Below, piece after piece: positions 27,091-43,317 of a DNA stretch of 64,000 nt. The DNA lies in the NCBI GenBank assembly GCA_964399295.1, contig CAYNQD010000001.1:86454-150453 (forward strand), written 5' to 3'. How positions within the stretch are numbered: the first letter of the stretch is position 1; the number at the start of each line of letters is the position of its first letter. This stretch comes from an uncultured Candidatus Saccharibacteria bacterium. GTDB taxonomy: Bacteria; Patescibacteriota; Minisyncoccia; Phycocordibacterales; UBA918. Made by a program: the position numbers and the translations under genes. The notes under the pieces were generated by a model. That model saw nothing but the letters and a program-made list of their open reading frames with translations. It was not told the DNA's origin and made no database searches.

Positions 27091-27423
27091 TTCCGAGACA
27101 TCATAGCGTAACCGCTTAACTACAGCAAGATGAGGATATCTAAAAACTAACCCACCGCCCCAATAACCGCCCGCCGCAAACAGGGTGTGTGTGGGGGGGT
27201 TGATCAAGGTGGAAAGGACTGTGTGAAAGCTCAAGTTTTGGCGCTGGCCTATAGTTTCAAAGGAACCGGAGTTTATCTTAAAGTCAACTCCGCTTGTGCT
27301 AGCACGACTTGGCTCGACATGGTATCCCAAATTGTAACCTATTGGAAGGAGAATCCGCTCGGAGCGTACCTGCCGAATTTGAGGGATGGGTTGTATCCGG
27401 TGACTAAGCCTACGGCGAAGGAA

Positions 27424-27924
27424 TTAGCTCGGATTTAGAGCGGTCTTAACCTTATCGGCTAACTCTTGAGAATTAAATGCTCCGTGGTTCTGTATTCTCA
27501 AAAGAGGCATGCCTGCACCCTTAAGAATACGCTCAACTTCCTGGTCCCGATCTTGTCTGTCGGGACGGTCGTGCGATTTGTCATCAAGCTCAATAGCCAA
27601 CTTCGGAGAAATGTAAGCCTTATCGCAAAGAACAAAATCTACAGACTTCTGGCTTACATGCCTGAAAGCGGCTCTCCAGTTTTGACCTACCACTTTGTGC
27701 TCGAGGAGTGTTGGCAGATGCACTTGAGCAAAGATTATGTAATCTTGACCGACAGCTTGAGCTAAAGCGTCATAGAACTCATGCTCTGCTTTAGTAAGAA
27801 ACCAGTTGCGGCGTTTATAGTCATACTTCGGCTTTTCATCTTGGATGTCGAACCCTCCCTTTAAAAGTCCTGCGACTATACCGGCAACGATAATTATTCC
27901 GATAAGTATGTAAATTAATGTCAT
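27424..27924 (-). CDS. Membrane-anchored DUF2726-like (restriction-endonuclease-fold) protein
   Basis: N-terminal TM helix (LIYILIGIIIVAGIVAGLL). The remainder resembles the DUF2726/NERD-like nuclease-related fold (FVLCDKAYISPKLAIELDDKSH). Confidence 0.35.
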   Translation of the reverse strand: MTLIYILIGIIIVAGIVAGLLKGGFDIQDEKPKYDYKRRNWFLTKAEHEFYDALAQAVGQDYIIFAQVHLPTLLEHKVVGQNWRAAFRHVSQKSVDFVLCDKAYISPKLAIELDDKSHDRPDRQDRDQEVERILKGAGMPLLRIQNHGAFNSQELADKVKTALNPS

Positions 27925-27975
27925 GGTGTTTATATTTTAACAAAATATGAATTTATTTACATTGACTCCCGTTGA

Positions 27976-28485
27976 TTACTTCTTTGGCCTGTCTCCCTTC
28001 AACAATCTCTCAAACGCCTCAAGGTTACCCATGGCATCATGAACTGGATGATGATCGTGCTTTGTTATGCGCAATCTTTTCCAAGATGATGCATCCTTGA
28101 AGTCTCCGATTAAGCCAGCATAAAAGTCGCCGATTCTGCGAGCGGAATATCCGAATGGATTCTTGCCAAGCGTTCGATGAAAGCTGTCATTGATCCATTG
28201 CCAGTCAAAAGCCGGATTATCACTGACAAATTTAGGTCTTTCTTCACCACATATCTCTTTCAACCACGCATCAAAATTTTCAAATACCTCTTTTTCATCA
28301 AAGACTATACCCGTCGCTATTTTGAACTCAGGATTTTCGGGGTCCGGCTTTCTTTCAACCAACACTCCATGAAAAGTAGCTTTTGATGGATATGCGACCG
28401 CACCAAATTCAGTGAGCTGTCCCATGCTCGGACACTTCCCGTTTGCCTCACAGTCTACAAATATTAAATTCTTTAAATCTTCCAT
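27976..28485 (-). CDS. DEDDh-family 3'-5' exonuclease (DnaQ/RNase T-like)
   Basis: FVDCEANG (Exo I D-x-E) and HDHHPVHDAMGN (Exo III H-x4-D). 169 aa. Confidence 0.6.
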   Translation of the reverse strand: MEDLKNLIFVDCEANGKCPSMGQLTEFGAVAYPSKATFHGVLVERKPDPENPEFKIATGIVFDEKEVFENFDAWLKEICGEERPKFVSDNPAFDWQWINDSFHRTLGKNPFGYSARRIGDFYAGLIGDFKDASSWKRLRITKHDHHPVHDAMGNLEAFERLLKGDRPKK

Positions 28486-28568
28486 ACAGACATTTTAACT
28501 CTTGTGGAAAATTACGCATAATCTGAACTACTAGACTTCCACAAACCTTCTCGGTATGTTCGTGTGCT

Positions 28569-28886
28569 GTGGAAGAAGACATGGATGAGGTCCGCAAAGC
28601 CGCAGAACAAGTGAGGTTTCCGTTCAACCGATACGAGATACTGAATCGGCTTTCCTCTCTTCCGGAACCAAAGGCAAAAATGAAGAAAGCTCTCAAAGAT
28701 AGGATGAGGCACTTAGCGGCCGCTTATGTCTCACTGGCCACTTTTGTTGACGATGAAGACATAGAATTTTCATTTAAATACAAGAAAAGCCGGAAAACAC
28801 GAGCAATTTACCTTAAGGTGATCAAGAATATTAAAAAGGCGCAAAAAGAAATGTGGCAATTCAAGCCCCTAGAGCATATTCAATAA
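28569..28886 (+). CDS. Hypothetical small basic protein
   Basis: 105-aa ORF, no recognisable motif. Directly upstream of the MTase gene. Confidence 0.3.
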   Translation: MEEDMDEVRKAAEQVRFPFNRYEILNRLSSLPEPKAKMKKALKDRMRHLAAAYVSLATFVDDEDIEFSFKYKKSRKTRAIYLKVIKNIKKAQKEMWQFKPLEHIQ

Positions 28887-28895
28887 TTTTCTGTT

Positions 28896-30917
28896 TTGAA
28901 ACAAAAAAATTTAAGGTATAATTGTCTTAACGCTATGCAAACCTCAATCTTAAAAAACAAACAAATAGATTTAGAGGGTGCAGTCTCACTCTTGGGTGTT
29001 TCTTCTGCTACGGTAAGAAATTGGATAAGACATGATTATCTTGTCCCTGACAACAAGGAAGGTAGAAAGCTTCTGTTTGATCATGACCATGTTAGAGATT
29101 TAAAAGAGAAAATAGATTCGGGCGTAATAGACCGTTTGAACAAACGGGCAAACAAAAAGGGGTCTATAAATACGTTTATACCTGATGAATATACGGACAA
29201 CATCGATGTAATTTTATTTGTAGAAAAAATTATCGACCAAAATGTTGAGAATCAACTCGATCGTGACAGTATTCTTCTCTCGGTCGCTCTTAATCTGCTC
29301 AAAAAACAGCAATTGATTACATATACGGATACACTTTCAAAACTTTCCTACAAAAATAAAATTATAAAAGACGAACTAGCTTGGTGGCTGAATAAAACCC
29401 AGAGGAGCTTTTCTTTTGATAAGTATTCGCATCTCTTAAATATTCAATTACCCGAGGCTGGTGACTTATTGGGAGTCGTATATCAATCACTTGTGGCCGA
29501 AGGTAGTAAAGCTCAAGCAGGTTCTTATTACACCCCAAAAAGTGTAGTTGATGAAATCATTAATAGTCACATACAAAATGATTCACTAGTTCTTGATCCC
29601 TGCTGTGGAACAGGCCAATTTCTCTTGTCTGCAGCATCTAAGGTCAAAAATCCTAGAAACATATGGGGCTTTGACATAGATGAAACGGCTACAAGATTAG
29701 CTCGCTTAAATTTGCTAATAAAGTTTCCAGATGAAGAATTTTCACCAAATATATACCACAAGAATACCTTGCTCCATGTTCAATCGGGGGGGCTATTTGC
29801 TGACGATATCCCGAATTTTGATGTAGTTATCACAAATCCACCTTGGGGGGTCCATTTTTCTCAACACGAGACTGATCAACTTCAAGGTATATATCCATCC
29901 ATTCAATCAAATGAGTCTTTTTCGTATTTTCTCAATAAGGGATTAAGCCTTCTCAAAGACGGTGGAATATTGTCGTTTATCCTTCCTGAGTCAATCCTCA
30001 ATATAAAGACTCATCGAGATATAAGAGAAGTAATATTGAACACGTCAAAAATCCAAAAAATTAAGTTCTTGGACCGAGTATTTAAAAATGTTTTTACACC
30101 TGTAATAAGACTTGATGTAGTTAAAACTAGCCCAGCAGATGAGCATACTTTTGAAGCTGAAAAGTATGAGGATATTTTAAGAGTTGATCAGTCGAGATTA
30201 AAAAAGAATCATGACTATATTTTTGATGTATTTTCTAACGGTAGTGATATGGTTATCATCGACAAGGTGTATAGCCTTGAACATGTAACCCTAGAAAATA
30301 ATGCAGAATGGGCGTTAGGAATAGTGACTGGTGATAATAAAAAATATCTAAAAGAAAGAGAGACATCAGACAGCGAACCCATTATTACAGGCAAAGATGT
30401 CAAGAGATTTATAACCTGTAAGCCAAAAAACTTTATTAGGTTTGATATTGAGAAGTTTCAACAGGTTGCTCCAGAATATAAATACCGTACCGAGGAAAAA
30501 TTGATTTATAAATTTATATCGAAAGACCTTGTTTTCTCTTATGACAACAAAAAGACTCTAACTCTCAATAGTGCGAATATTCTTATACCTAAAATAGCTG
30601 GGTATCCTGTAAGGACCATACTAGCACTGTTCAACTCGAGTCTGTATCAGTTTGTGCATCAGAAAAAGTTCGCTTCGATAAAGGTTTTAAGAAGTGATAT
30701 TGAAAAGCTACCTTTGCCTACACTAAACAATAACCAACATCATGAAATAATTTCTCTGGTTGACAAGCTTCTTGATGAGGAAATTTCATCTGAGCAAAGG
30801 AAAGAAAAATATGTGGAGCTCGATAATCTGATTATGGACATCTTCTCCCTAAATGAGGACCAAAAAGCACATGTCGTGTCAAATGTGAAGATTTCTGATA
30901 AACTATTATCCGTATAA
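28896..30917 (+). CDS. N6-adenine DNA methyltransferase, gamma-class Eco57I family, with N-terminal excisionase-type HTH and C-terminal target-recognition region
   Basis: VSSATVRNWIRHDYLVP (HTH_17-like), GSYYTPKSVV, LDPCCGTGQFLL (motif I), VVITNPPWG (motif IV NPPW). 673 aa. Confidence 0.75.
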   Translation: MKQKNLRYNCLNAMQTSILKNKQIDLEGAVSLLGVSSATVRNWIRHDYLVPDNKEGRKLLFDHDHVRDLKEKIDSGVIDRLNKRANKKGSINTFIPDEYTDNIDVILFVEKIIDQNVENQLDRDSILLSVALNLLKKQQLITYTDTLSKLSYKNKIIKDELAWWLNKTQRSFSFDKYSHLLNIQLPEAGDLLGVVYQSLVAEGSKAQAGSYYTPKSVVDEIINSHIQNDSLVLDPCCGTGQFLLSAASKVKNPRNIWGFDIDETATRLARLNLLIKFPDEEFSPNIYHKNTLLHVQSGGLFADDIPNFDVVITNPPWGVHFSQHETDQLQGIYPSIQSNESFSYFLNKGLSLLKDGGILSFILPESILNIKTHRDIREVILNTSKIQKIKFLDRVFKNVFTPVIRLDVVKTSPADEHTFEAEKYEDILRVDQSRLKKNHDYIFDVFSNGSDMVIIDKVYSLEHVTLENNAEWALGIVTGDNKKYLKERETSDSEPIITGKDVKRFITCKPKNFIRFDIEKFQQVAPEYKYRTEEKLIYKFISKDLVFSYDNKKTLTLNSANILIPKIAGYPVRTILALFNSSLYQFVHQKKFASIKVLRSDIEKLPLPTLNNNQHHEIISLVDKLLDEEISSEQRKEKYVELDNLIMDIFSLNEDQKAHVVSNVKISDKLLSV

Positions 30918-30924
30918 TAAATAT

Positions 30925-31665
30925 ATGGATCCCCTTAAAGAAAAGCTAAATAAGCTCGTGGATGGGCTTTCTGCAGATAAAAAGGAAATAATTAAGACTA
31001 GACTTTCAAATCTCGTTTCGGTTTATCCTTTTAATGAATACGAATATATAATTTCTACCTTGTTAGGCTATAGGAAAATTACCATTGACGATTATAACCA
31101 GATTAGAGATGAATATATTGCTAAGAATATATACCTTAATATTTTCGAAATAGGATCGCCGAGGGGATTTGGTGAGCTATGGGCACAAGGACATCTTAAA
31201 GAGCTTGTACCTGAACTCGTAAAACCTACAAAGAAAATCGAAGAGAACTATAAAGGTGACTACGATTTTATATTACCTGGACAAGACCATCTTGTTCGAA
31301 TTGAGGTAAAAGCCTCAAGAGCTGTAGATGGTGATAGTGCAGAGCCTTTATATGTTAAAGCTTTGGCGTTCGACAGTAAGCAACCTTTCTGGATGAATTT
31401 TCAACAAATTAAACCGGCACACTGTGATGTATTTGTCTGGATTGCTGTGTGGCGTGATGTGATCAAGTATTGGGTCCTATCTTCCGACGAAGTAAAGAAT
31501 AATAAGTACTACTCAAAAGGTCAGCACCGAGGAAATGTTGGTGAAGGACAATTACATCTCAAAGATGACAATATCAAAGATTTTCAAATTTATGAGGTAA
31601 AAGCTGCTGAACTTAAAGATGCCATCGTGAGAGCTTATGAACGTCAAAAAAGTTCAAACGGATAA
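30925..31665 (+). CDS. Putative PD-(D/E)xK restriction endonuclease (cognate of upstream MTase)
   Basis: DYDFILPGQDHLVRIEVKASR gives D...E-V-K spacing typical of PD-(D/E)xK. Starts 7 nt after the MTase stop. Confidence 0.4.
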   Translation: MDPLKEKLNKLVDGLSADKKEIIKTRLSNLVSVYPFNEYEYIISTLLGYRKITIDDYNQIRDEYIAKNIYLNIFEIGSPRGFGELWAQGHLKELVPELVKPTKKIEENYKGDYDFILPGQDHLVRIEVKASRAVDGDSAEPLYVKALAFDSKQPFWMNFQQIKPAHCDVFVWIAVWRDVIKYWVLSSDEVKNNKYYSKGQHRGNVGEGQLHLKDDNIKDFQIYEVKAAELKDAIVRAYERQKSSNG

Positions 31666-31757
31666 GGCTATTTAGCCCCTAAATGCCCCTGTGTACGCTT
31701 TTCTGGCCCCATTCGGGGCTTCTTGCGTATATGCCAGATTTCGCCAACTTTTTAGAG

Positions 31758-31830
31758 GGTCCAAAGTAATTCCTACTCTTAGAAATCTAGGAGGTCCTAA
31801 AATCACAAGCATTGTAGGCCCAAAAGTAAT
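31758..31830. repeat. Three direct imperfect 13-14-nt iteron-like repeats
   Basis: gggtccaaagtaat (31758-31771), aggtcctaaaatca (31792-31805), aggcccaaaagtaat (31816-31830). Consensus GG(T/C)CC(A/T)AAAGTAAT. Confidence 0.5.
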
Positions 31831-31960
31831 GCAACACGTTTTTCACTTTTTGGAGCCGACAATGTAAATATTCCCGTTGCACGGAAAAAGCTGGACCACT
31901 TGCAACGGGGGTCTAGCTTTTTCCGTTTTCAGGAAGAACTACGCAAGGTCGAAACCCCTC

Positions 31961-32230
31961 ATGATAAGCAAACACGCATTCGAAGAATACAAGCAGATAC
32001 ACCGAGAAGAAATCGGCAAGGCTTTTTCCGATGATGTGCTTTTCGATGAGGCAACTAATCTGCTTACGCTCTTTGATCGCGTCTATCGGCCGATCAAGAA
32101 AGCGTGGCTCAAGGAATATGGACAACGAACAAGAGATAACTCCGATATGGCGAAACGAAAGACCGAGGTCGCCAGCCAGGATGGCTCTCAACGCAAATCA
32201 GAAAAACGCAAATCTGAAAAAGCAGATTGA
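31961..32230 (+). CDS. Hypothetical small protein (island sub-element)
   Basis: Likely start ATG at 31961 (MISKHAFEEY...). The track ORF from 31877 translates the upstream hairpins. Overlaps the next gene out of frame by about 50 nt. Confidence 0.3.
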   Translation: MISKHAFEEYKQIHREEIGKAFSDDVLFDEATNLLTLFDRVYRPIKKAWLKEYGQRTRDNSDMAKRKTEVASQDGSQRKSEKRKSEKAD

Positions 32231-33029
32231 TCAGATGGACAAGTCAAAGCTTCGGACCAAGCGCAAGCCGAGCAGATTCTTTGTCGAAAACGAATACGTG
32301 CATGGCGGATATGTAGCCATACTTCCTAACGCATGCTCAAGAATCTATTACGTTCTCTCGGTCCATTGTAATAACGAAACACAAGTGGCATTCCCGAGCA
32401 TCACGACTATTCAAGAGATGTCAGGCTGTACCAATCGCAACACGACCATGAAGGCTCTCTCCATACTTGAGTCGTATGGCATCATCGGAATCCTCAAGAC
32501 CAAAGGATTCAATATGGTGAATGTGTACGCCTTTCAAGCCACTCGATACTGGAAACCGATCCCTGAATGGAAAGAAAGGATGGAGAAATACAGAAACAAA
32601 TCGCAGTATCAATTCACCCCACATCGTAGTAACAAAAAGACCGACTATCGCAGTGACAGGGATGATACCCTAACTAACCTAAGTGATAACTCTCCTAATA
32701 CTATAACTAGCATCGGAGATGTCTTAAGAAAAATGCAGTTGCAGGGACCCGATTCGGTTGCTATTCAGGAGCCTTCTGGGCATAGTGTCGTCGGTCCAGC
32801 TAAGCATGAACTTTTACCCGTAATAACGGGTAATTTACGGGAACATCGTAATAACACCAGTGATACTACGATAGACCAAGAAAGCACCGTTAATAAACGG
32901 GAAGAAACGGTGGACACAGTCGAAAGTGCACCATTTATAAATGGAGAAAAATGGACTAAGGAAGATGAGGGCATTGGTCTGATGGACATCAACAATGAAG
33001 ACATCGGGCCAGGAAACGCAACATTATAA
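32181..33029 (+). CDS. Putative winged-helix DNA-binding protein (replication initiator/regulator of mobile element)
   Basis: HGGYVAILPNACSRIYYVLSVHCNNETQVAFPSITTIQEMSGCTNRNTTMKALSILESYGIIG resembles wHTH replication-initiator/regulator N-termini. Likely start at 32181 (MALNANQ). Confidence 0.3.
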   Translation: MALNANQKNANLKKQIDQMDKSKLRTKRKPSRFFVENEYVHGGYVAILPNACSRIYYVLSVHCNNETQVAFPSITTIQEMSGCTNRNTTMKALSILESYGIIGILKTKGFNMVNVYAFQATRYWKPIPEWKERMEKYRNKSQYQFTPHRSNKKTDYRSDRDDTLTNLSDNSPNTITSIGDVLRKMQLQGPDSVAIQEPSGHSVVGPAKHELLPVITGNLREHRNNTSDTTIDQESTVNKREETVDTVESAPFINGEKWTKEDEGIGLMDINNEDIGPGNATL

Positions 33030-33033
33030 AACT

Positions 33034-34707
33034 ATGAATAAAACACCACCAATCAAATACTTCCTCTACGCCCGCAAGTCGAGCGAAGCGGAAGACAGAC
33101 AGGCGGCATCCATCGATGCCCAAAAAGACGAGCTCCTGAAGATTGCCAAAGAGCAGGGCTTGGCAATCGTAGACGTTCTTGAGGAATCGCAATCGGCCAA
33201 GAAGCCAGGCAGACCAATCTTCAACAAAATGCTCGAACGAATTTACAAGGGCGAGGCCAACGGCATCATCTGCTGGAAATTGGATCGTCTCGCTCGCAAT
33301 CCGGTAGACGGCGGACAGATAAGCTGGATGCTCCAGCAAAGCGCCATCGCAGAGATCATCACCTTCGGCCGAACCTACTATCCGACCGACAACGTCCTCA
33401 TGATGCAAGTTGAACTTGGCATGGCCAACCAATATATTCGAGACTTATCAGTGAATGTAAAAAGAGGCTTGGCCAAGAAAGTCCGAGAAGGTTGGCTCCC
33501 GAGCATGTGTCCCGTCGGCTACATGAGCACTCCTGACAGAGAAAAGGGATTTAAGACTATCACCAAAGACCCCGACCGCTTTCCAATCGTGCGGCGCATC
33601 TTTGACCTCATGCTCACCGGCAACTACACGGTCCAACAGATATGGAATATCTCACGCAAAGAACTCAATCTCACCACTTTCAAACGCCGAAGCCTCGGCG
33701 GCAAACATCTCTCAAAGAGCGGCATGTATGCGCTCCTGAGCAATCCCTTTTACTACGGTTGGTTTGAGTATCCGTACAAAAGCGGAGAATGGCACAAAGG
33801 CTCACATGAGCCGATGATCACCGAAGACGAATTCAACAAGGTCCAGCAATACATGGGCAGAAAGAACAGACCGTCGCTCGCCAAGAACCTCAACTTCGCA
33901 TTTACCGGCCTCATGCATTGCGGCACCTGCGGTTGCGGCATCACCGCCCAAGCGAAAGTAAAGCGATGTAAGAATGGCAATGTCCACCACTACGTCTACT
34001 ACAATTGCACCAAGAAGAAAGTAGATGTGAAGTGTCCCGAGCAATGTATCGAGCTCAAGAACCTCGAACTGGATATCAAAGGCAAACTCAGCGAAATCAC
34101 CATTTCAGAGCGATTCAAGGATTGGGCGATCAAGCATCTGCATGAACTTCGCAAGACCGAGGCTGATAGCGACTCGGCGGTACTCAAAGGCAAGAACAAA
34201 GAGCTTGAGGAAATCACCAAGAAACTGCAATCGCTCACCCTCAATTTCACCTCGCCGGCCAATCAGGAGCGCACTCTCATTTCAGACGAGGAGTACCAGA
34301 ATTTGAAGATGGGCATGGTCCGAAGAAAGCTCAAGCTCGAAGACGAGCTCAAGGTGCAGAACAAGGAGATCTTGGAATGGGTGGAGCTGTCGGAACGGAC
34401 CTTTGACTTTGCCTGCTACGCCCACATCTGGTTTGAAAAAGGCGATGAAAAGACCAAGCGAGCCATCCTTTCATGCCTTGGCTCGAACCTCACTCTAAAG
34501 GGCAAAAAAGTCTTTGTAAATTACCATTCTTTCGTGAAGACACTCATAAAAAGTCGTCAGGCGGTTGAAGACGAATTAGAGAAGGTTAGAACCTCTAAAG
34601 TATCAAGCAATAAAAGACAAAACCCTACAAATTGTGAGGTTTCGTCACTAGGGCTCCCCGTCTCGAGTTGGGGACTTTTGCCGCCTTGCCCCGCAATGCT
34701 TTTTTGA
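33034..34707 (+). CDS. Large serine recombinase (resolvase/invertase N-domain plus recombinase domain plus Zn-ribbon)
   Basis: YFLYARKSSEAEDRQAASIDAQKDEL carries the catalytic Ser of Y-x-R-x-S. Cys cluster CGTCGCGITAQ...CTKKKVDVKCPEQC and coiled-coil C-terminus. The track ORF starts 32995, but internal Met 33034 is likely. Confidence 0.8.
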   Translation: MNKTPPIKYFLYARKSSEAEDRQAASIDAQKDELLKIAKEQGLAIVDVLEESQSAKKPGRPIFNKMLERIYKGEANGIICWKLDRLARNPVDGGQISWMLQQSAIAEIITFGRTYYPTDNVLMMQVELGMANQYIRDLSVNVKRGLAKKVREGWLPSMCPVGYMSTPDREKGFKTITKDPDRFPIVRRIFDLMLTGNYTVQQIWNISRKELNLTTFKRRSLGGKHLSKSGMYALLSNPFYYGWFEYPYKSGEWHKGSHEPMITEDEFNKVQQYMGRKNRPSLAKNLNFAFTGLMHCGTCGCGITAQAKVKRCKNGNVHHYVYYNCTKKKVDVKCPEQCIELKNLELDIKGKLSEITISERFKDWAIKHLHELRKTEADSDSAVLKGKNKELEEITKKLQSLTLNFTSPANQERTLISDEEYQNLKMGMVRRKLKLEDELKVQNKEILEWVELSERTFDFACYAHIWFEKGDEKTKRAILSCLGSNLTLKGKKVFVNYHSFVKTLIKSRQAVEDELEKVRTSKVSSNKRQNPTNCEVSSLGLPVSSWGLLPPCPAMLF

Positions 34708-34754
34708 CATTTTTATTTTACCACAACGACGCATCCTGAGCACCTTAAAATCGC

Positions 34755-35465
34755 CTACTTCTCTACATACTTTATTGGATTTTGACTGCCTTTCTTCCAA
34801 ATATGTGCGACGGATGTATTAAGATATTTTTCACGAATTTTAGATGGTGCGATAAAACCCTCAAATATATATCTCCCAGATACATCCTGAGAGGGTAGCC
34901 ACTTTTTTATGACATACACCTCACGAATGATTCCTGCATATACGGCGCAGGCTATTTTAAATGTTTTTGCACGAGCGCCGACTTTCCAATCCTTTCGCGT
35001 TACCTGATAAAGTTCTTCTTTGGACATGTCGTGTCTAAATGCTTTGTTGATGCGAATGAGTATCACGGGGTCATCAAATACTGCTGGTCGAGCCTGATAT
35101 TCTATCTCAATATCCCGCAAAGACATTTTTCCGCGCAAATAGGCATGATGACCTGTTACAAGATTGGTTAAATTATTCAATCCAAAATAATCGATCATTG
35201 CACTCTCTACTTCAAACGCCTCCTTTTCTTCCAGCCCGTGGCGCAAGACGATAAGCCCGACTTCGTGGCCAGCTTTCTGTATCTCACGAATAGTTTTTAT
35301 CTTCTCGGTTTCTTTTGTCTTTTCCTCAAGCGCCCCAAGCAAATGATGATTTATTCGATTGCCTTTTCCTTTACCAACATAGAAAACTTTTCCTGCCTGA
35401 GGGTTGATAAGAAAATAGACATAATATTTGAGCTTCTCTATAGTTGACTGTGATAGCCTACTCAT
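34755..35465 (-). CDS. GIY-YIG nuclease-domain protein
   Basis: YYVYFLINPQAGKVFYVGKGKGNRINHHL has the GIY...YIG catalytic-motif arrangement with Arg/His downstream. 236 aa. Confidence 0.55.
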   Translation of the reverse strand: MSRLSQSTIEKLKYYVYFLINPQAGKVFYVGKGKGNRINHHLLGALEEKTKETEKIKTIREIQKAGHEVGLIVLRHGLEEKEAFEVESAMIDYFGLNNLTNLVTGHHAYLRGKMSLRDIEIEYQARPAVFDDPVILIRINKAFRHDMSKEELYQVTRKDWKVGARAKTFKIACAVYAGIIREVYVIKKWLPSQDVSGRYIFEGFIAPSKIREKYLNTSVAHIWKKGSQNPIKYVEK

Positions 35466-35581
35466 GCTCCGCGGGATGGACGGGTTCAGAACTCTTGGTA
35501 AGCCAATTCAAGCAAGTAGATTGGTCACAAATTCAGAAAGAGTTAGCGTTTAGTGGAATTTTAAATAATTATTGTTTAGAA

Positions 35582-36859
35582 CTACGGTAGTCTTTTTACA
35601 AAGCTAAATAGTTCATTATCAGCTTCATTCAAATCTTCAGCTGTGATCAGTTCGCAAATTTTTGTAGCTAACTTTACTTTTGAAATAGCTATACCATTAT
35701 GACAGTTAGGATCATTAGATAAATAATCCTTAACAATCTCGGTCCTTGTCTGTGTTGAGTTAAAAATCGACTGAAGGTGTCTTTCTGGATAGTAATACTC
35801 TATAGCATCTTTGGTTAAAGTTAGGATATGATCATCCTTTCCAATCAATAATTTCCACTCTCTTTCCAGCGTGTCTTTCAAAGGATTGTCTACTATTACA
35901 TAAGTACGATCCTTATATACTGGAACATTTTTTTCATTAAATTTTAAAAAATTAGTGATTGAATTTATTGCGTATTTAACGCTTCCGTTTCCTCCAGAAT
36001 TATGTACACCAAAGCCAGATTTACCTAAGAGACTAAGAATTTTCTTGATAAAACTAGTATCAGAAGGTCCTTCGAATATAAGCACTTTTTCAGGTAATAA
36101 GTAACTTGCGAGAGTGTTTCCTAATAATCTAAATATAACATCATTCATCTGCTCAACAGGTTTTATTTCAATTTTATCGTCCCCGTTTCGTTGGCAAATA
36201 TAATTATTTGATGGATCTTCTAGATCTAGGAAATGATGAGAATGTGTAGCAATAAAGATTTTTTTCTTCGGTAAAGCCTTATCTTTAATTGCTTGAAATA
36301 AATACTTCTGTAAATACGGTTCCAGGCCAAGCTCTGGCTCATCGATACATAGATATTCAACTTCTGGGTCGAACAGTCTGATGAAAATCTCGATTGTCGC
36401 TCTCATCCCAGAACCCTGTTTTGTAATTGAGTATTTGTTTGCCTTTAGTAACATAGGCGACGCTGAATTGTCTACATCCTCTCGCTCTTCAATGAGGGGA
36501 TTAGGAAAATATTTGTTATACCATTCAATAATTGGCTCTCGGTCCTTATCCTTGAGACTAAAGAAATCTTGCAAAGGCTGAATTTGGCGACTTGAGTTAT
36601 CATCCTCTTGTTGCAGTGTTCGTGAATTGTATACTGGCAGGTTCTTTTTATAGTCTTCTTTCATAGACCCTTCGCCTGTTAGTAGAGTTCTATTCACTGG
36701 TACAACATAACTTTTTTGATCCTGAAAAGTTTTAGCTATACTTCGAAGAAGTGTTGATTTGCCACCATTGTTAGAGCCAACGAAAATGAAGAAATTTTTA
36801 TCATCAGGCAGGTTTATGTTTTGTGTAGCGAACTGTTTTTCTTTATCTTGTATTTCCAT
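35582..36859 (-). CDS. OLD-family-like ATP-dependent nuclease (ABC-type ATPase plus TOPRIM)
   Basis: Walker A FIFVGSNNGGKSTLL, Walker B LCIDEPELGLEP, H-loop IFIATHSHHF. The C-terminal VLIFEGPSDTSF ... YVIVDNPLKD is consistent with the TOPRIM E ... DxD. Confidence 0.55.
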   Translation of the reverse strand: MEIQDKEKQFATQNINLPDDKNFFIFVGSNNGGKSTLLRSIAKTFQDQKSYVVPVNRTLLTGEGSMKEDYKKNLPVYNSRTLQQEDDNSSRQIQPLQDFFSLKDKDREPIIEWYNKYFPNPLIEEREDVDNSASPMLLKANKYSITKQGSGMRATIEIFIRLFDPEVEYLCIDEPELGLEPYLQKYLFQAIKDKALPKKKIFIATHSHHFLDLEDPSNNYICQRNGDDKIEIKPVEQMNDVIFRLLGNTLASYLLPEKVLIFEGPSDTSFIKKILSLLGKSGFGVHNSGGNGSVKYAINSITNFLKFNEKNVPVYKDRTYVIVDNPLKDTLEREWKLLIGKDDHILTLTKDAIEYYYPERHLQSIFNSTQTRTEIVKDYLSNDPNCHNGIAISKVKLATKICELITAEDLNEADNELFSFVKRLP

Positions 36860-36908
36860 ATCTGTTAGAAGAATTATAAATTATTGTAAAGTATTGTAAA
36901 CTATAGTA

Positions 36909-37823
36909 ATGGATCCGATTACCATTACTCAAAAGGACGAACTCGCGCTATTTAAGCTTTCTGAACAAGGTCCGCTTGGGAAAAGAGCATTATTTATATT
37001 TCAGTATCTCTTCATACGTGCTGACTTCAGGGACCTTGTAAAAGAGTTACGTGCGGAATTTGATATACCACCAGAAGGTTTTGACTTATCTGACCATAGT
37101 CAAAGTGAAATCGTAAGACAGAAGTACGTTGACACGGGCGGTTTCTCAGGAGAGATGATTTTTACAGCTAGTTTTAGACTAGATCCAAAAATGTCACATC
37201 GTATTGATCAGTTTATCGAGCAGTGTGGAGTTGTGCAGTATTCGCCTAATATGGATCTTGCAGAAGGTTTTATCTCAGCAATTGTCCGAGAGTACATTCT
37301 CCTTAATGATTTTATCGGTCTCTACAAAAATCGTTTTGGTCTGATTACTGTAGAACAGTACGATGTTTATGATCGCGAGGATGAGAATTACAGCGAAAAA
37401 GATGTTGAACTTCGTTTCTCTATACCGATCTCTGTGAAGAGGGATGAATTTAAAGAGTATATTGATAATATTTGGGACGTTCTTGAAAGCTCAAGAAAGG
37501 ATTTTTTACGTAAACAAGACCAAGTTCGTTTTCGTCCGAGAAATAACTTTGTCCGTGATGTGCTTATTTTGAATAAGTACATAGAGCTTGAGAATTTACC
37601 GAAGTCCAAACAAACGGCTCGTGGTATAAACTATTTAGATGTAGCTACTAGAAAAGAGCTTATTGCAGAAGGTCATTTAGATATACCTGATGAGGGGTCA
37701 ATAAGAAGTATAGTGAGTAGATTAAAACGTGAAATTAAAGAGAAGAGTGCATATTGGGAAGAACGAGAACCTGATCCAGAACCCGATCCAAACTACAAAC
37801 CATCAGATAATGATGGCTTCTAG
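36909..37823 (+). CDS. Hypothetical protein (divergent from OLD-like gene), acidic EPDPEPDP tail
   Basis: 304-aa ORF with no recognisable motif. Divergently arranged 50 bp from the ATPase-TOPRIM gene start. Confidence 0.3.
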   Translation: MDPITITQKDELALFKLSEQGPLGKRALFIFQYLFIRADFRDLVKELRAEFDIPPEGFDLSDHSQSEIVRQKYVDTGGFSGEMIFTASFRLDPKMSHRIDQFIEQCGVVQYSPNMDLAEGFISAIVREYILLNDFIGLYKNRFGLITVEQYDVYDREDENYSEKDVELRFSIPISVKRDEFKEYIDNIWDVLESSRKDFLRKQDQVRFRPRNNFVRDVLILNKYIELENLPKSKQTARGINYLDVATRKELIAEGHLDIPDEGSIRSIVSRLKREIKEKSAYWEEREPDPEPDPNYKPSDNDGF

Positions 37824-38076
37824 CGTTTAAGCCCACTGCTTAAATGCAACAATGTGGCTTTTAAACTGAACTCTTAAATTCAGTATTTTACTTTTGCCTA
37901 CTGTAATAACGTATGAGCAACCTTCGGGTTGTTTATGAGTTGTTCAGACACACAAAAGATAAGTATCTCTGATATGACCTGTGAAGACAGGGGTCGACTT
38001 GTTAGTGCTTTTGAGTGGCTGATGAAGCAGGATAAAAAGCAAAATCCTGCTCTTTATCAGGAAAAATACAGGGAAA

Positions 38077-39207
38077 ATGATCGACACAGTATGTCTCCTC
38101 ATTCCGAAGGACAAGATGAAATTTATCGAAGGTGTGTCTAATTGGGAACTCTATTCACGTACAGACACCTATCAAAAGTTTGTACGGAACCCTTCAAAGA
38201 TCGAGAAGAATACGGGTAAGTATTTTCCAAGACTGACGGGCTATAAAAGACGCTTCGGAGATGATGCAAATGTACGCATTGAGTTCTCGGTCCCGAAACT
38301 GCTTTTACTAAATAATCTCGATGAAGTTACTGAAAGTGACTTCTCGAGAATAGTAAATGTTTTATACGACCGTCTAACCGAAATGGGCGTAGTTATTCCA
38401 AAATCAGAGCTTAAAAGTGCGAATGTTAGCTCCGTTCATTATTCAAAGAATATCGCCCTGACTAACGGGTATACTGCCAGCTATATCCTTTCGGAGATTA
38501 ACAAGATTGATCTTAGAAAGAGCTTTGATTTCTCGAAGGCACGCTTCACAAATGATGGTCAGAGTTTGTACATTCACACTACAAGTCATCAGTTCGTGCT
38601 CTATGACAAGATTGCTGATTTAGCTAAGGGCAAGAAGCGAGCTATCGATAAGGATCAGACAATATACCAGCGGTCCTTGTTTGAACAGATAGATCAATCA
38701 TCAACCGAGGTACTTAGGTTAGAAGTAAGGCTGAATAAGAAGCAGAAGTTGAAAGAAGTGTTAGCTAAGTTCGGTCAAAATCAAACTCCGATCTTCTCGG
38801 ATATTTTCTCAGAAAAAATAAGCAAAAAAATCGTAGTGGATTATTGGAATACACTTATTAAAGCCAACAATCTAGCAGTACTCTCTTTGGACCTCAAACC
38901 CAAAGACCTACTACAGCTATTAATCCGATCCGAGTTTAAGGCGAAGCCCAATCGACTGCTATATCTCATAGGTTTACATTGCCTTGCACGGGACGGAACT
39001 GGTACAAGGCAATTACGATCTGTGCTCGAGAAGAAGTCTAGTGATAGAAGTTGGTACCGTATCTCAAGTGACCTCAAACTTCTAGGTGAACTTATTTCTG
39101 ATGATTATCTGAGAGATTGGGTCAAACATATCGATCAAGCACTAAAAGATTACAAAACATTTAAAGTTAATGAATATGCAAAACCGATCGCATCAAAAGA
39201 CTTTTAA
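38077..39207 (+). CDS. Putative replication initiation protein (Rep_trans/rolling-circle-like)
   Basis: 376 aa. Mobile-element context. Candidate catalytic SSVHYSKN Tyr motif. Weak evidence overall. Confidence 0.25.
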   Translation: MIDTVCLLIPKDKMKFIEGVSNWELYSRTDTYQKFVRNPSKIEKNTGKYFPRLTGYKRRFGDDANVRIEFSVPKLLLLNNLDEVTESDFSRIVNVLYDRLTEMGVVIPKSELKSANVSSVHYSKNIALTNGYTASYILSEINKIDLRKSFDFSKARFTNDGQSLYIHTTSHQFVLYDKIADLAKGKKRAIDKDQTIYQRSLFEQIDQSSTEVLRLEVRLNKKQKLKEVLAKFGQNQTPIFSDIFSEKISKKIVVDYWNTLIKANNLAVLSLDLKPKDLLQLLIRSEFKAKPNRLLYLIGLHCLARDGTGTRQLRSVLEKKSSDRSWYRISSDLKLLGELISDDYLRDWVKHIDQALKDYKTFKVNEYAKPIASKDF

Positions 39208-39451
39208 CACTTCATTTCTTAATCGAGTAATTACGTATAAAGAGAAGCTCAAGGAAGTCGAGACATCTTCCATTGAAGAGGTGTTAGAAAACTTCTCAAA
39301 AGATCTATACCCAGAGCAAGAATTAATCGTGTGGGAAATGATTAGTTTACATTATGAAAATGGCACTTTGATGCACCCAGAATGGGACTTAACTGCCAAA
39401 AAAGAGCATTATAAGTCAGTATTCGCTCAATCTTTCGGTATCAACGGGTAG
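39170..39451 (+). CDS. Hypothetical small protein
   Basis: 93-aa ORF overlapping the end of the upstream gene. No motif found. Confidence 0.25.
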   Translation: MNMQNRSHQKTFNTSFLNRVITYKEKLKEVETSSIEEVLENFSKDLYPEQELIVWEMISLHYENGTLMHPEWDLTAKKEHYKSVFAQSFGING

Positions 39452-39493
39452 TTACTAGGGATGTAAAGAATAGTAAAGTATAATAAAACACAT

Positions 39494-39670
39494 ATGGAGG
39501 AAAAAGAATTTTACACAGCGCAAGAACTTGCTGAAATGTTACGTGTGAACATTATGACAGTCTATAGGTATATAGATGCAAAAAAACTCAACGCCTACAA
39601 GTTTGGAAAAGAGTATCGTATTGATAAGGTTGAGTTTAAAAGTTTTCTAGAAAAGGCAAAAACAAAGTGA
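39494..39670 (+). CDS. Excisionase-family HTH DNA-binding protein (HTH_17/MerR-like)
   Basis: 58-aa ORF below the track cutoff: MEEKEFYTAQELAEMLRVNIMTVYRYIDAKKLNAYKFGKEYRIDKVEFKSFLEKAKTK matches the Xis/HTH_17 pattern. Stops 4 nt before the Dcm start. Confidence 0.6.
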   Translation: MEEKEFYTAQELAEMLRVNIMTVYRYIDAKKLNAYKFGKEYRIDKVEFKSFLEKAKTK

Positions 39671-39673
39671 TAT

Positions 39674-40666: not shown

Positions 40667-40679
40667 TAATTAATGAATT

Positions 40680-41723: not shown

Positions 41724-41731
41724 GTTAAGTT

Positions 41732-43306: not shown

Positions 43307-43317
43307 GCTACTGCGGA
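43243..43317 (-). tRNA. tRNA-Asn (anticodon GUU) with encoded CCA
   Basis: Minus-strand UCCGCAGUAGCUCAGCGGUAGAGCAAUCGGCUGUUAACCGAUUGGUCGUAGGUUCGAAUCCUACCUGCGGAGCCA. The 7-bp acceptor, D arm GCUC/GAGC, anticodon stem AUCGG/CCGAU with loop CUGUUAA, and T-arm GUAGG-UUCGAAU-CCUAC all form. Confidence 0.85.

What the first reader, a model, noticed from the sequence alone, without database searches (positions are those of the whole stretch)
31670..34710. GC-richer ~3-kb mini-element: iterons, interlocked hairpins, small ORF, wHTH protein and serine recombinase
Immediately after the REase stop come a gccccattcggggc hairpin and three direct iteron-like repeats (31758-31830). An interlocked pair of inverted repeats follows: cccgttgca/tgcaacggg (31873-31909) and ggaaaaagct/agctttttcc (31883-31924), which cannot both form at once. 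Three genes come next: a small ORF, a wHTH Rep/regulator-like protein overlapping out of frame by about 50 nt, and a large serine recombinase. Composition is visibly higher GC than surrounding island DNA. This looks like a self-contained integrative or replicative module with its ori/att region preserved.
Basis: seen in the sequence. Interest (0 to 1): 0.5.

Follow-up and report, generated by a model that had tools for sequence, protein, structure and literature searches.

The report
tRNA-Asn integrative element backbone, CPR bacteria
The 3-kb GC-rich stretch is the conserved integration and probable replication core of a mobile element family that inserts at the end of the tRNA-Asn gene in many ultrasmall (CPR/Patescibacteria) bacteria and carries anti-phage genes; it is a real, previously undescribed variant of a known kind of element.

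Summary
31670-34655 has the highest GC of any 3-kb stretch in the window. The iteron-like repeats, the hairpin and the interlocked inverted repeats are all present and all conserved in homologous loci.

Homologues of this three-gene block (small ORF, winged-helix Rep-like protein, large serine recombinase, LSR) occur in at least 30 CPR metagenome and MAG loci. LSR identity is 84-91% in the complete copies. Homology ends exactly at GGGCT (34655), about 50 nt before the annotated LSR stop. In about 40 of 66 loci the next base belongs to tRNA-Asn(GTT), so the element integrates at the tRNA 3' end and the LSR tail is encoded by the flank.

The block is probably not the whole element:
- It is always preceded by variable defence cargo.
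- A second conserved end lies at 27313-27438. It encodes a 41-codon tail in frame with the LSR and carries an attP-type motif spacing.
- The likely unit here is therefore 27315-34655 (7.3 kb, restriction-modification cargo).
- A second LSR element (34656-43245) now separates it from tRNA-Asn.

Both interlocked helices show compensatory changes and plus-strand G·U pairs. They form a leader RNA with two conformations that look mutually exclusive.

No free circular form was found. Replication, excision and the RNA switch are inferred, not shown.

The parts
27310..27314 (+). TGGCT, the displaced tRNA-Asn 3' terminus. Its antisense is AGCCA: A72, the discriminator G and CCA. CT at 27313-14 is the proposed outer crossover (attL) of the whole tRNA-Asn array. 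The same TGGCT occurs at 43243-47 in the live tRNA.
27313..27438 (+). 'Type C' left end. It is a P'-type half-site and a 41-codon tail (LDMVSQIVTYWKENPLGAYLPNLRDGLYPVTKPTAKELARI*). The tail is in frame with the LSR once 34655 is joined to 27315.
   Evidence: 33 distinct homologues always begin g|CTCGAC. 13 of 66 loci have this end directly after the LSR right end. Third-codon-position entropy is 1.16 against 0.85. The AACC motif is at +22.
27424..31665 (.). Cargo genes: a DUF2726 nuclease-like gene (27424-27924, minus strand), a DEDDh exonuclease (27976-28485, minus strand), orf105 (28569-28886), a type II N6-methyltransferase (28896-30917) and a type II restriction endonuclease (30925-31665).
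   Evidence: Pfam and PADLOC. Homologous cargo is linked to the same backbone in L015, L073, L035 and L044.
31670..31724 (+). Left edge of the conserved backbone: AWTNNNNCCCTAAA..CCCTGTGTACGCTTTTC, then a hairpin (31706-19, or 31685-91 with 31714-21), then a T-run. It looks like a terminator placed after the cargo.
31758..31834 (+). Iteron-like repeats (GGYCC N0-8 AAAGTAAT[GT]C). There are two good copies and one weak one here, and 1-5 in other copies at 56-68 nt spacing.
31841..31869 (+). Promoter-like region: TTTCAC, a 17-nt spacer (31847-31863), then GTAAAT. Homologues read TATAAA 6-7 nt before S1. This is inferred from reading the sequence; the consensus scan did not call it.
   Evidence: read from the alignment; one search lists no site here
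31873..31926 (+). Leader RNA with two interleaved helices. S1 is 31873-81 with 31901-09. S2 is 31882-97 with 31910-25. A U-run of variable length follows.
31961..32230 (+). Small ORF of 89 aa. It has a conserved 53-aa helical N-terminal part and a variable basic tail. Its function is unknown; it is a candidate directionality factor or regulator.
32181..33029 (+). Winged-helix (HTH_36) Rep-like protein. An alternative start is at 32118. The C-terminal half is predicted disordered but carries invariant short motifs.
33034..34707 (+). Large serine recombinase LSR1. Residues 1-541 (to 34655) are element-encoded. The last 17 codons (34656-34707) are read from the neighbouring DNA.
34636..34655 (+). 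Right end of the element (P arm), GAGGTTTCGTCACTAGGGCT. CT at 34654-55 is the proposed crossover dinucleotide.
   Evidence: It is unique in the window. There are 66 exact matches in metagenomes, and the flanks diverge right after it.
34656..43245 (.). Second element, lying between the first and the tRNA. It carries a PD-T4-3 GIY-YIG gene, an OLD/AriA/GajA-like ATPase, unknown ORFs, the HaeII-type restriction-modification pair and LSR2 (41732-43306, 26% identical to LSR1).
43243..43317 (-). tRNA-Asn(GTT), the attB of the array. The LSR2 ORF reads 64 nt into it on the antisense strand.

Best explanation
**What it is.** 31670-34655 is the conserved backbone of a family of site-specific integrative elements of CPR/Patescibacteria. 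In order it contains:
- a terminator-like hairpin
- iterons
- a promoter-like region
- a leader RNA with two interleaved helices
- a small ORF
- a winged-helix Rep-like protein
- a large serine recombinase (LSR)

**How integration works.** The LSR recombines the element into the extreme 3' end of tRNA-Asn(GTT). The crossover lies within GGCT, most simply at the CT that is antisense to A72 and the discriminator G. The tRNA stays intact. The recombinase gene itself spans attP, so after integration its last codons come from whatever lies beyond the junction.

**Extent in this window.** The mobile unit most likely runs from the 'type C' left end at 27315 to 34655 (7.3 kb). Its cargo is a type II restriction-modification system, a DUF2726 gene and an exonuclease. 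Circularisation would restore an LSR with a conserved 41-aa tail.

**Present state.** A second element with its own LSR (34656-43245) later inserted at the same tRNA and pushed this one away from it. Such arrays and decayed remnants are common at this tRNA.

**Shown.**
- family membership
- the boundaries
- the tRNA-Asn target
- conservation of repeats and helices
- tail swapping
- arrays

**Inferred.**
- the wHTH protein binds the iterons and replicates the excised circle
- the small ORF helps excision or regulation
- the leader toggles between S1 and S2 to set operon expression
For: **Synteny and boundaries.**
- The small ORF, HTH and LSR occur together in 10 MAG loci from Saccharibacteria, Parcubacteria, Taylorbacteria and Paceibacteria, and in about 20 metagenome loci.
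- LSR identity is 84-91%, while HTH identity is only 39-81%.
- DNA homology starts at 31664-31677 and stops at 34657-60 in all of them.

**Right flank.**
- The flank is tRNA-Asn by ARAGORN in L010 and L011.
- It is an intron-split tRNA-Asn in L008, L013, L014 and L016.
- About 40 of 66 metagenome right ends abut tRNA-Asn.

**LSR domains.** Resolvase 4e-22, Recombinase 7e-10, Zn ribbon 5e-5; PHROG integrase 2e-66.

**Flank-encoded tails.** Family C-termini read ..SSLGL followed by RRQDSNL or GWDSNPRP, which is translated T-arm antisense, or by type C tails.

**Type C end.**
- It is in frame with LSR1, conserved as protein, and always starts at g|CTCGAC.
- The AACC motif is at +17 in 44/44 tRNA flanks and at +22 in 11/13 type C ends.
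- This matches the 5-bp attB/attP shift of the zinc-ribbon-domain (ZD) motif reported for LI integrase (PMC3783163).

**Cargo linkage.** Variable defence genes always lie directly upstream of the backbone. Homologues of this window's cargo are linked to the same backbone elsewhere.

**Rep-like protein.**
- The AF2 winged helix has pLDDT 80-93.
- The best PDB folds are the staphylococcal RepA initiator N-terminal domain (4pql, 5kbj, 4pt7; E about 1e-3) and the DnaD N-terminal domain.
- PHROG 'replication initiation' families match at E 6e-4 to 2e-3.

**Leader.** 100% pairing, 9 compensatory pairs, and G·U at one position in 19/21 sequences on the plus strand only. The MFE is -35.3 kcal/mol, z = -4.1.

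**Composition.**
Against: **Mobility.**
- No circular (attP) junction or empty site was found. None of the 66 right ends is followed by the 31670-type left end.
- No family protein carries the predicted short tail.
- There are no relatives in the plasmid, phage or IMG/VR collections. Mobility and replication are therefore inferred from comparative data only.

**Rep assignment.**
- It rests on weak scores (E about 1e-3).
- A PDB sequence-profile search found nothing.
- A winged helix plus direct repeats also fits a repressor with operators.

**Left boundary.**
- It is not settled. The 31670 boundary is base-precise, has CT beside it here and in about half of copies, and has an in-frame TAA 10 nt inside in 18/19 copies. 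It could therefore be a second recombination site.
- Type C ends were not detected within the sequence available upstream of several complete copies (L010, L011, L013, L015, L016).

**Second element.** Its left end lacks the +22 motif, so tandem insertion is not proven.

**Leader.** The U-tract after S2 is only partly conserved, so an attenuator role is uncertain.
Confidence: 0.7

Rival explanations
1. The 3-kb block (31670-34655) is itself a complete, independently mobile mini-element. Its attP is formed by joining 34655 to 31670. The upstream cargo belongs to other elements or to the host.
For: - The homology boundary is base-precise at 31670 in all copies.
- GGCT/CT sits immediately left of it here and in about half of copies.
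- Joining 34655 to 31670 gives an in-frame TAA after 4 codons, followed by the terminator-like hairpin, in 18/19 copies. That would make a tidy 3-kb circle.
- Type C ends were not seen upstream of several copies.
Against: - No copy was found with the 31670-type end next to host DNA. Defence cargo always lies immediately upstream, usually co-oriented and ending at the boundary.
- The 31670-type end lacks the +22 AACC motif that marks the other element left ends.
- No right-end-to-31670-type junction occurs among 66 loci, and no protein has the 4-residue tail.
- No remnant of another element's right end sits at 31669.
Confidence: 0.2
2. The wHTH protein and the repeats form a regulatory module (repressor and operators, or an immunity function) rather than a replication module. 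On this reading the element is purely integrative and never replicates as a plasmid.
For: - The last repeat lies just upstream of the promoter-like region.
- Fold hits also include many MarR/PadR-type regulators at only slightly worse E-values.
- No extrachromosomal copy was found in the plasmid, virus or metagenome searches.
- No helicase or primase gene is present.
Against: - The top fold hits are plasmid RepA initiator N-terminal domains and DnaD.
- The only PHROG hits are replication-initiation families.
- Multiple spaced direct repeats with variable copy number are typical of iteron origins.
- The long conserved-motif tail resembles a partner-recruiting C-terminal domain more than a small repressor.
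Confidence: 0.35
3. This copy is a trapped, no longer mobile relic. Its genes look intact, but its right site has lost the tRNA half and it cannot excise.
For: - The right flank is not tRNA but another element.
- Of 42 loci with enough upstream sequence, 20 retain only a truncated LSR or the bare right end. Decay is therefore the common fate.
- This copy has the fewest iterons and the shortest intergenic region (305 nt against up to 536).
Against: - All three ORFs are full length, without frameshifts, and align end to end with homologues.
- The leader helices are intact.
- The right end matches the consensus 20-mer exactly.
Confidence: 0.3
4. The interlocked repeats act at the DNA level, as overlapping palindromic protein-binding sites or origin/att cruciforms, and not as RNA.
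For: Palindromic operators also co-vary symmetrically. The repeats lie between the iterons and the first gene.
Against: - G·T pairs are strand-specific. They occur in 19/21 sequences at one position and 6/21 at another, and would be A·C on the other strand.
- The repeats lie downstream of the conserved -10-like box.
- 25 contiguous pairs are maintained, which is far more than a protein site needs.
Confidence: 0.1

Closest known systems
Serine-integrase (LSR) integrative elements and prophages (A118/LI, phiC31, Bxb1, SPbeta and similar)
   Same: - The three-domain LSR is present (Resolvase, Recombinase, Zn ribbon).
- Integration is site-specific, with a short shared core.
- A recognition motif lies 5 bp further out on the element side than on the host side, as described for LI integrase (PMC3783163).
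   Different: - The target is the last base pairs of a tRNA gene.
- attP lies inside the 3' end of the recombinase gene, so the C-terminal tail changes on integration. It is 41 aa in the putative circular form.
- Arrays with right-end|left-end junctions are common, although LSRs are not expected to recombine attR with attP.
- There are no phage genes.
Tycheposons of Prochlorococcus (10.1101/2020.12.28.424599)
   Same: - Both are small tRNA-targeted integrative elements in streamlined genomes.
- Both combine an integration module, a small replication module and variable cargo.
- Both show tandem insertions that push older elements into the island, and degenerate remnants.
   Different: - Tycheposons are defined by a lineage-specific tyrosine recombinase (910 of 937; the rest have an LSR) and by primase/helicase-type replication genes.
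- Here the integrase is an LSR facing outward into the tRNA, the replication candidate is a wHTH protein with iterons, the hosts are CPR bacteria, and the cargo is defence genes.
Iteron plasmids with RepA_N/DnaD-like winged-helix initiators (pSK41/pTZ2162 RepA; PDB 4pql, 4pt7, 5kbj)
   Same: A winged-helix N-terminal domain is the best structural match. Directly repeated sites lie next to the gene.
   Different: - There is no sequence-level membership: no RepA_N Pfam hit, only HTH_36.
- The repeats are spaced about 60 nt apart rather than in tandem.
- The C-terminal half is disordered with short motifs.
- No free replicon has been observed.
SSV1-type archaeal integrases whose gene contains attP
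   Same: The integrase ORF is interrupted by its own integration. The two parts end up at opposite ends of the integrated element.
   Different: - SSV-type enzymes are tyrosine recombinases that are split in the body of the gene and inactivated.
- Here only a C-terminal tail beyond residue 541 of a serine recombinase is exchanged, so the enzyme probably stays functional.
Leader attenuators of plasmid rep operons (pT181 and pIP501 type)
   Same: A structured leader with alternative pairings lies between the promoter and a rep-like operon. A U-run follows the more stable helix.
   Different: - The two helices share no nucleotides but are interleaved (S1a-S2a-S1b-S2b).
- No countertranscript promoter was found.
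- There is no Rfam match.

Membership tests
Large serine recombinase / serine integrase | N-terminal resolvase catalytic domain with a serine nucleophile | tested here: met
   PF00239 at 4.2e-22, 79 bits. The motif YARKSS at residues 12-17 was read.
Large serine recombinase / serine integrase | Recombinase domain (PF07508) followed by a zinc ribbon domain (PF13408) | tested here: met
   PF07508 scores 39.6 bits against a cut-off of 21.1. PF13408 scores 24.1 bits, just under the 25.3 cut-off, but is annotated in nearly all close homologues.
Large serine recombinase / serine integrase | attP and attB sites with a common central dinucleotide, and a recognition motif shifted 5 bp between the P and B half-sites | tested here: inconclusive
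   - A shared GGCT/CT occurs at all junctions.
- AACC lies at +17 (tRNA, 44/44) against +22 (type C, 11/13).
- The left (P) arm does not mirror this spacing, and no biochemical test was done.
Large serine recombinase / serine integrase | Catalyses integration and, with a directionality factor, excision | not testable with these tools
   No circular junction or empty site was recovered.
Iteron-type theta replicon (RepA_N/DnaD-like initiator) | Initiator with a winged-helix DNA-binding domain related to known initiators | tested here: inconclusive
   - Foldseek top hits are 4pql, 5kbj and 4pt7 at E 1.4e-3 to 2.9e-3, with TM about 0.5 on the target.
- PHROG replication-initiator families match at E 6e-4 to 2e-3.
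- There is no NCBIfam hit and no PDB sequence hit.
Iteron-type theta replicon (RepA_N/DnaD-like initiator) | Multiple directly repeated initiator-binding sites near the rep gene | tested here: met
   1-5 copies of AAAGTAAT[GT]C, or of the AAATTGATT variant, occur in all 19 complete copies. Binding itself was not tested.
Iteron-type theta replicon (RepA_N/DnaD-like initiator) | Exists as an extrachromosomal replicon | tested here: not met
   There are no plasmid, phage or IMG/VR relatives and no circular contig. L018 and L019 are linear integrated fragments.
Tycheposon | Lineage-specific tyrosine recombinase and shared hallmark replication genes (primase/helicase) | tested here: not met
   The integrase is an LSR, and no primase or helicase is present in the backbone. 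The definition is taken from 10.1101/2020.12.28.424599.
Tycheposon | tRNA-targeted, carrying cargo, forming tandem arrays with remnants | tested here: met
Known RNA family (Rfam 15) | Match to a curated covariance model | tested here: not met
   There is no hit at the gathering threshold in the window, and none at E<=1 in 31500-35000.

The most novel reading that the evidence does not exclude
The family may be a serine-recombinase counterpart of an integron-like accretion system. On this reading, each insertion at tRNA-Asn leaves a right arm that, together with the tRNA, is again usable as an attB. Elements and recombinase-less cassettes, bounded by a type C left end and an LSR-3'-remnant right end, would then pile up into defence islands across CPR lineages. 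The recombinase gene spans attP, so its conserved 41-aa tail is present only in the excised or array-junction state and could act as a built-in directionality or state sensor. Expression would be gated by a previously undescribed leader RNA with two interleaved, mutually exclusive helices.
Probability: 0.25. Interest if true: 0.8.

Novelty: new variant of a known kind. Interest (0 to 1): 0.6.

Why it matters
Mobile elements of CPR/Patescibacteria are almost unknown, and tools for these organisms are scarce. Genetic manipulation has so far relied on natural transformation in a few Saccharibacteria (PMC10633639, found; not read in detail).

A compact backbone of about 3 kb occurs at 84-91% recombinase identity in Saccharibacteria, Parcubacteria, Taylorbacteria and Paceibacteria MAGs. 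This implies recent exchange between deep CPR lineages. It also offers a natural site-specific integration system, with a defined 40-50 bp target in tRNA-Asn, and possibly a replicon, for building vectors.

The data also show how defence islands form in very small genomes, by serial insertion and decay at one tRNA. Two further mechanistic features can be tested directly: a serine integrase whose C-terminus is rewritten by integration, and a leader with two interleaved helices that both co-vary.

Tried and rejected
**Nucleotide and sequence searches.**
- blastn of 31670-34710 against PLSDB plasmids and INPHARED phages found no match.
- The right-end 20-mer and the HTH profile gave nothing in IMG/VR.

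**Circular form.** The short contigs L018 (3328 nt) and L019 (3265 nt) looked like candidates. They have no terminal overlap and carry unrelated upstream genes, so they are integrated fragments.

**RNA and tRNA searches.**
- Rfam at gathering and at E<=1 gave only the tRNA.
- ARAGORN found no tRNA at 34400-34900.

**Fossil tRNA in the LSR 3' end.** The idea was that the last 90 nt of the LSR gene are a fossil tRNA-Asn. It was prompted by KVRTS aligning with LSR2's tRNA-encoded RIRTY. Local alignment is no better than shuffles (p about 0.35) beyond a shared TCGAACCT 8-mer. Rejected.

**Small ORF.** There is no hit in Pfam, PHROG, NCBIfam or PADLOC. The AF2 model is a helix-loop-long helix with no meaningful PDB fold match.

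**HTH protein.** The profile found nothing among PDB sequences.

**Source organism.** Cluster and contig look-ups returned no names.

**Analysis errors corrected.** Early scripts used wrong frames for the small ORF and HTH (31962 and 32119). Those tblastn identities reflect DNA conservation only. They were redone.

**First profile scan.** It was repeated with 15 sequences.

Full report
**What is in the window.**

The region follows a type II restriction-modification pair: a methyltransferase at 28896-30917 and an endonuclease at 30925-31665 (Pfam, PADLOC). In order it contains:
- a 295-nt intergenic stretch
- an 89-aa ORF (31961-32230)
- an HTH_36 protein (32181, or 32118, to 33029)
- a large serine recombinase, LSR1 (33034-34707), with Resolvase, Recombinase and zinc-ribbon domains

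GC is 0.474 for 31666-34657 and 0.38 on both sides. This is the highest of 611 sliding 3-kb windows.

**A recurrent element of CPR bacteria.**

The HTH protein has 58 homologues in the protein collection. A profile scan of species-representative genomes returned 11 loci. All are in MAGs labelled Saccharibacteria, Parcubacteria, Taylorbacteria, Paceibacteria or Patescibacteria, apart from one labelled Gammaproteobacteria. The loci with enough sequence carry the same three genes in the same order.

The LSR is 84-91% identical in these loci, while the HTH protein ranges from 39 to 81%. DNA similarity to the window begins at 31664-31677 and ends at 34657-34660 in every locus.

No similar DNA exists in the plasmid or phage collections or in IMG/VR.

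**The right end and the target.**

Homology stops after ...GAGGTTTCGTCACTAGGGCT (34636-34655). In L010 and L011 the next bases are tRNA-Asn(GTT) on the opposite strand. In L008, L013, L014 and L016 they are the 3' exon of a tRNA-Asn(GTT) interrupted by a group I intron in the anticodon loop.

A metagenome scan for the 20-mer gave 66 loci. About 40 continue into tRNA-Asn, 13 into a recurrent 'type C' sequence (CGACATGG...), and the rest into other sequences, several of them T-arm-like.

The element supplies ...GGGCT and the tRNA supplies CC plus the rest of the acceptor stem. The crossover therefore lies within the shared GGCT. The simplest reading is the CT dinucleotide, which is antisense to A72 plus the discriminator. 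The tRNA is regenerated.

The crossover lies 50 nt upstream of the annotated LSR stop, so the last codons of the integrated recombinase are read from the flank. Family C-termini show ..SSLGL followed by:
- RRQDSNL, RGQDSNLRP or GWDSNPRP, which are translated T-arm antisense, or
- type C tails

In this window the flank is not the tRNA. It gives the tail PVSSWGLLPPCPAMLF.

**The window is a tandem array.**

The only tRNA in the window is tRNA-Asn at 43243-43317. A second LSR (41732-43306, 26% identical to LSR1) reads into it. Between 34656 and that tRNA lie defence genes: a PD-T4-3 GIY-YIG gene, an OLD/AriA/GajA-like ATPase and the HaeII restriction-modification pair.

A similar order occurs in L062: an LSR1-type right end, then an LSR2-like remnant, then the tRNA. 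I therefore read 34656-43245 as a second element that entered at the tRNA after the first. This is inferred. Its left end could not be confirmed with homologues.

**The likely true left end.**

Window 27311-27402 is homologous to the type C sequence that follows LSR1-type right ends elsewhere. It starts at CT 27313-14 and is preceded by host cgactTGGCT. TGGCT is the antisense of the A72-G-CCA terminus, and the same pentamer sits at 43243-47 in the live tRNA.

Read in the LSR1 frame across the junction, it encodes LDMVSQIVTYWKENPLGAYLPNLRDGLYPVTKPTAKELARI*. Thirty-three distinct homologues all begin at g|CTCGAC and are conserved as protein. Third-position entropy is 1.16 against 0.85 for the other two positions. 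Their left neighbour is either an LSR1-type right end or unrelated DNA.

An AACC-type motif lies at +17 after GGGCT in 44 of 44 tRNA flanks. It lies at +22 in 11 of 13 type C ends and in 7 of 17 other ends. This is the 5-bp shift of the zinc-ribbon-domain (ZD) motif between attB and attP half-sites described for LI integrase (PMC3783163). The 31670-type end has no such motif.

In every complete copy examined, the backbone is preceded by variable defence cargo: restriction-modification systems, ATPases and helicases. The last cargo gene is usually co-oriented and ends within 0-12 nt of the boundary. It ends about 75-350 nt short in L010, L016 and L038.

Type C ends lie 1.9-9 kb upstream of the right end in many loci. 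L008 has a spacing of 7.06 kb, comparable to the 7.3 kb here. Homologues of this window's cargo are linked to the same backbone elsewhere:
- the exonuclease at 94% in L015
- the DUF2726 gene at 86%, right after a type C end, in L073
- exonuclease remnants fused to LSR remnants in L035 and L044

The mobile unit here is therefore most likely 27315-34655. The 3-kb block is its conserved backbone, and 31670 is the cargo/backbone joint.

I cannot exclude that 31670 is also a recombination site. The boundary is base-precise. CT lies next to it here and in about half of copies. Joining 34655 to 31670 gives an in-frame TAA after four codons, followed by the hairpin, in 18 of 19 copies.

**Decay and arrays.**

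Forty-two metagenome loci have at least 1.7 kb upstream of the right end. Of these, 22 have a complete LSR, 14 a 3' fragment of varying length, and 6 only the bare right end. L047 is a miniature made of the first ~110 nt of the backbone fused to the last ~80 nt.

The right end may persist because it now forms the 3' end of an essential tRNA gene; this is inferred. Several loci show cassettes bounded by a type C end and a right-end remnant, one after another (L054, L021, L020).

**The intergenic region.**

An alignment of 19 complete copies shows four parts.
- **Left edge.** CCCTAAA..CCCTGTGTACGCTTTTC, a hairpin and a T-run. Both have little covariation.
- **Repeat zone.** Its length varies, with 1-5 copies of AAAGTAAT[GT]C (or AAATTGATT) spaced 56-68 nt apart. 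Many copies are followed by a small inverted repeat. This window has the shortest version, with two good copies.
- **Promoter-like box.** A TATAAA-like -10 box lies 6-7 nt before the structured segment. I read this from the alignment; the scan did not call it.
- **Interlocked repeats.** These are described next.

**The interlocked helices.**

On 21 distinct sequences, S1 (9 bp) and S2 (16 bp) are paired in all 525 cells. Four S1 pairs and five S2 pairs carry changes on both sides. No shuffle out of 500 reaches the observed covariation score, and slid controls drop to 35-48% pairing.

G·U pairs occur on the plus strand in 19 of 21 sequences at one position and in 6 of 21 at another. They would be A·C mismatches on the other strand. 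The pairing is therefore in a plus-strand RNA, or conceivably plus-strand ssDNA.

The order is S1a-S2a-S1b-S2b, with 0-nt linkers on both outer sides. The full helices cannot coexist as an H-type pseudoknot. This is my inference from standard pseudoknot geometry. S2 is the thermodynamic fold (-35.3 kcal/mol, z = -4.1). S1 can form first during transcription.

I therefore propose a two-state leader that controls the operon. A U-run follows S2 but is only partly conserved, so attenuation is a hypothesis. No Rfam family matches.

**The proteins.**

- **Small ORF.** It is coding. Entropy at its third positions is 0.75-0.91, against 0.22-0.25 at second positions, over the first 52 codons. Its 33 homologues occur only in these elements. 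The model is helix-loop-long helix, with no informative fold or family match. A role as directionality factor or regulator is a guess based on size and position.
- **HTH protein.** It has a confident winged helix (pLDDT 80-93) and a disordered C-terminal half with invariant short motifs. Its best structural matches are the N-terminal domains of staphylococcal plasmid RepA initiators (4pql, 5kbj, 4pt7; E 1.4e-3 to 2.9e-3) and of DnaD. Many small regulators follow close behind. Its only PHROG hits are replication-initiation families (E 6e-4 to 2e-3). Together with the iterons, this favours a replication initiator for the excised circle, but a repressor/operator pair remains a serious rival.
- **LSR.** It belongs to a family of at least 2466 proteins with E<=1e-100.

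**What was not found.**

There is no circular junction, no empty site and no extrachromosomal copy. Mobility is inferred from three observations:
- identical ends in unrelated genomes
- the constant target
- near-identical recombinases across deep lineages

**Comparison with known systems.**

The element works like other serine-integrase elements. In lifestyle it most resembles the tycheposons of Prochlorococcus: small tRNA-targeted elements with integration and replication modules, cargo, tandem insertion and remnants.

It fails the defining tycheposon features of a tyrosine recombinase lineage and primase/helicase genes. It differs from described LSR systems in having attP inside the 3' end of the recombinase gene. 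That arrangement is otherwise known from SSV-type tyrosine integrases (my own knowledge).

I rate it a new variant of a known kind. It has practical interest as a possible integration and replication toolkit for CPR bacteria, and it contains an RNA motif worth testing.

Noticed in passing
L008:10480-10840 (also L013, L014, L016; by sequence L035, L044, L048, L053, L060, L064, L074): The tRNA-Asn(GTT) genes of several CPR genomes carry a group I intron in the anticodon loop (Rfam RF00028, 73-92 bits). ARAGORN misses these tRNAs.
   Followed up: partly
L028, L059, L065: right flank of the element: The tRNA-Asn T-loop is interrupted right after GGATTCG by 170-460 nt of unrelated GC-rich DNA. This may be another insertion or an intron at an unusual position.
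   Followed up: no
window 41732-43306 / 43243-43317: A second large serine recombinase (26% identical to LSR1) has an ORF that runs 64 nt into tRNA-Asn on the antisense strand. Its tail ..GRIRTYDQSVNSRLLYR is translated tRNA.
   Followed up: partly
window 27315-43245: The whole tRNA-Asn island is made of defence genes. They are a DUF2726 gene, a DEDDh exonuclease effector, a type II restriction-modification system, a PD-T4-3 GIY-YIG gene, an OLD/AriA/GajA-like ATPase, two unknown ORFs and a HaeII-type 5mC restriction-modification system.
   Followed up: partly
L047:1250-1412: A miniature derivative: the first ~110 nt of the backbone left end is fused to the last ~80 nt of the LSR gene and the right end, next to tRNA-Asn. 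It has no genes.
   Followed up: partly
window ~32637-32665 (L001 and L004 ends): In the Logan assembly of SRR16797977 the contig breaks inside the HTH gene, while two sister samples assemble through it. This may reflect strain heterogeneity at that point.
   Followed up: no
window 32630-33029 (HTH protein residues ~150-282): The C-terminal half of the HTH protein is predicted disordered. Yet it carries invariant short motifs (TLTNL..N..I.DIL, VAI..PS..SV, PVITGNLRE, PFINGEKW). PFINGEKW is duplicated in some homologues. There are two alternative C-terminal endings across the family.
   Followed up: no
window 34577-34590 and homologues: A TCGAACCT / TTAGAACCT 8-mer, like the tRNA T-loop antisense, is conserved about 70-80 nt (34581-34588) upstream of the crossover inside the LSR gene, where it encodes (V/A)RTS. 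Overall similarity to the tRNA is not significant. It could be an accessory recombinase site.
   Followed up: partly
window 50614-53355: A TraG/VirD4-like coupling-protein gene (T4SS-DNA_transf, TraG-D_C) lies in the apparent core genome, next to mreB.
   Followed up: no
L054, L021, L020, L041/L081 (same 218-kb contig): There are successive cassettes, each bounded by a type C left end and an LSR-3'-remnant right end and lacking an intact recombinase. They look like non-autonomous passengers of the same recombination system.
   Followed up: partly
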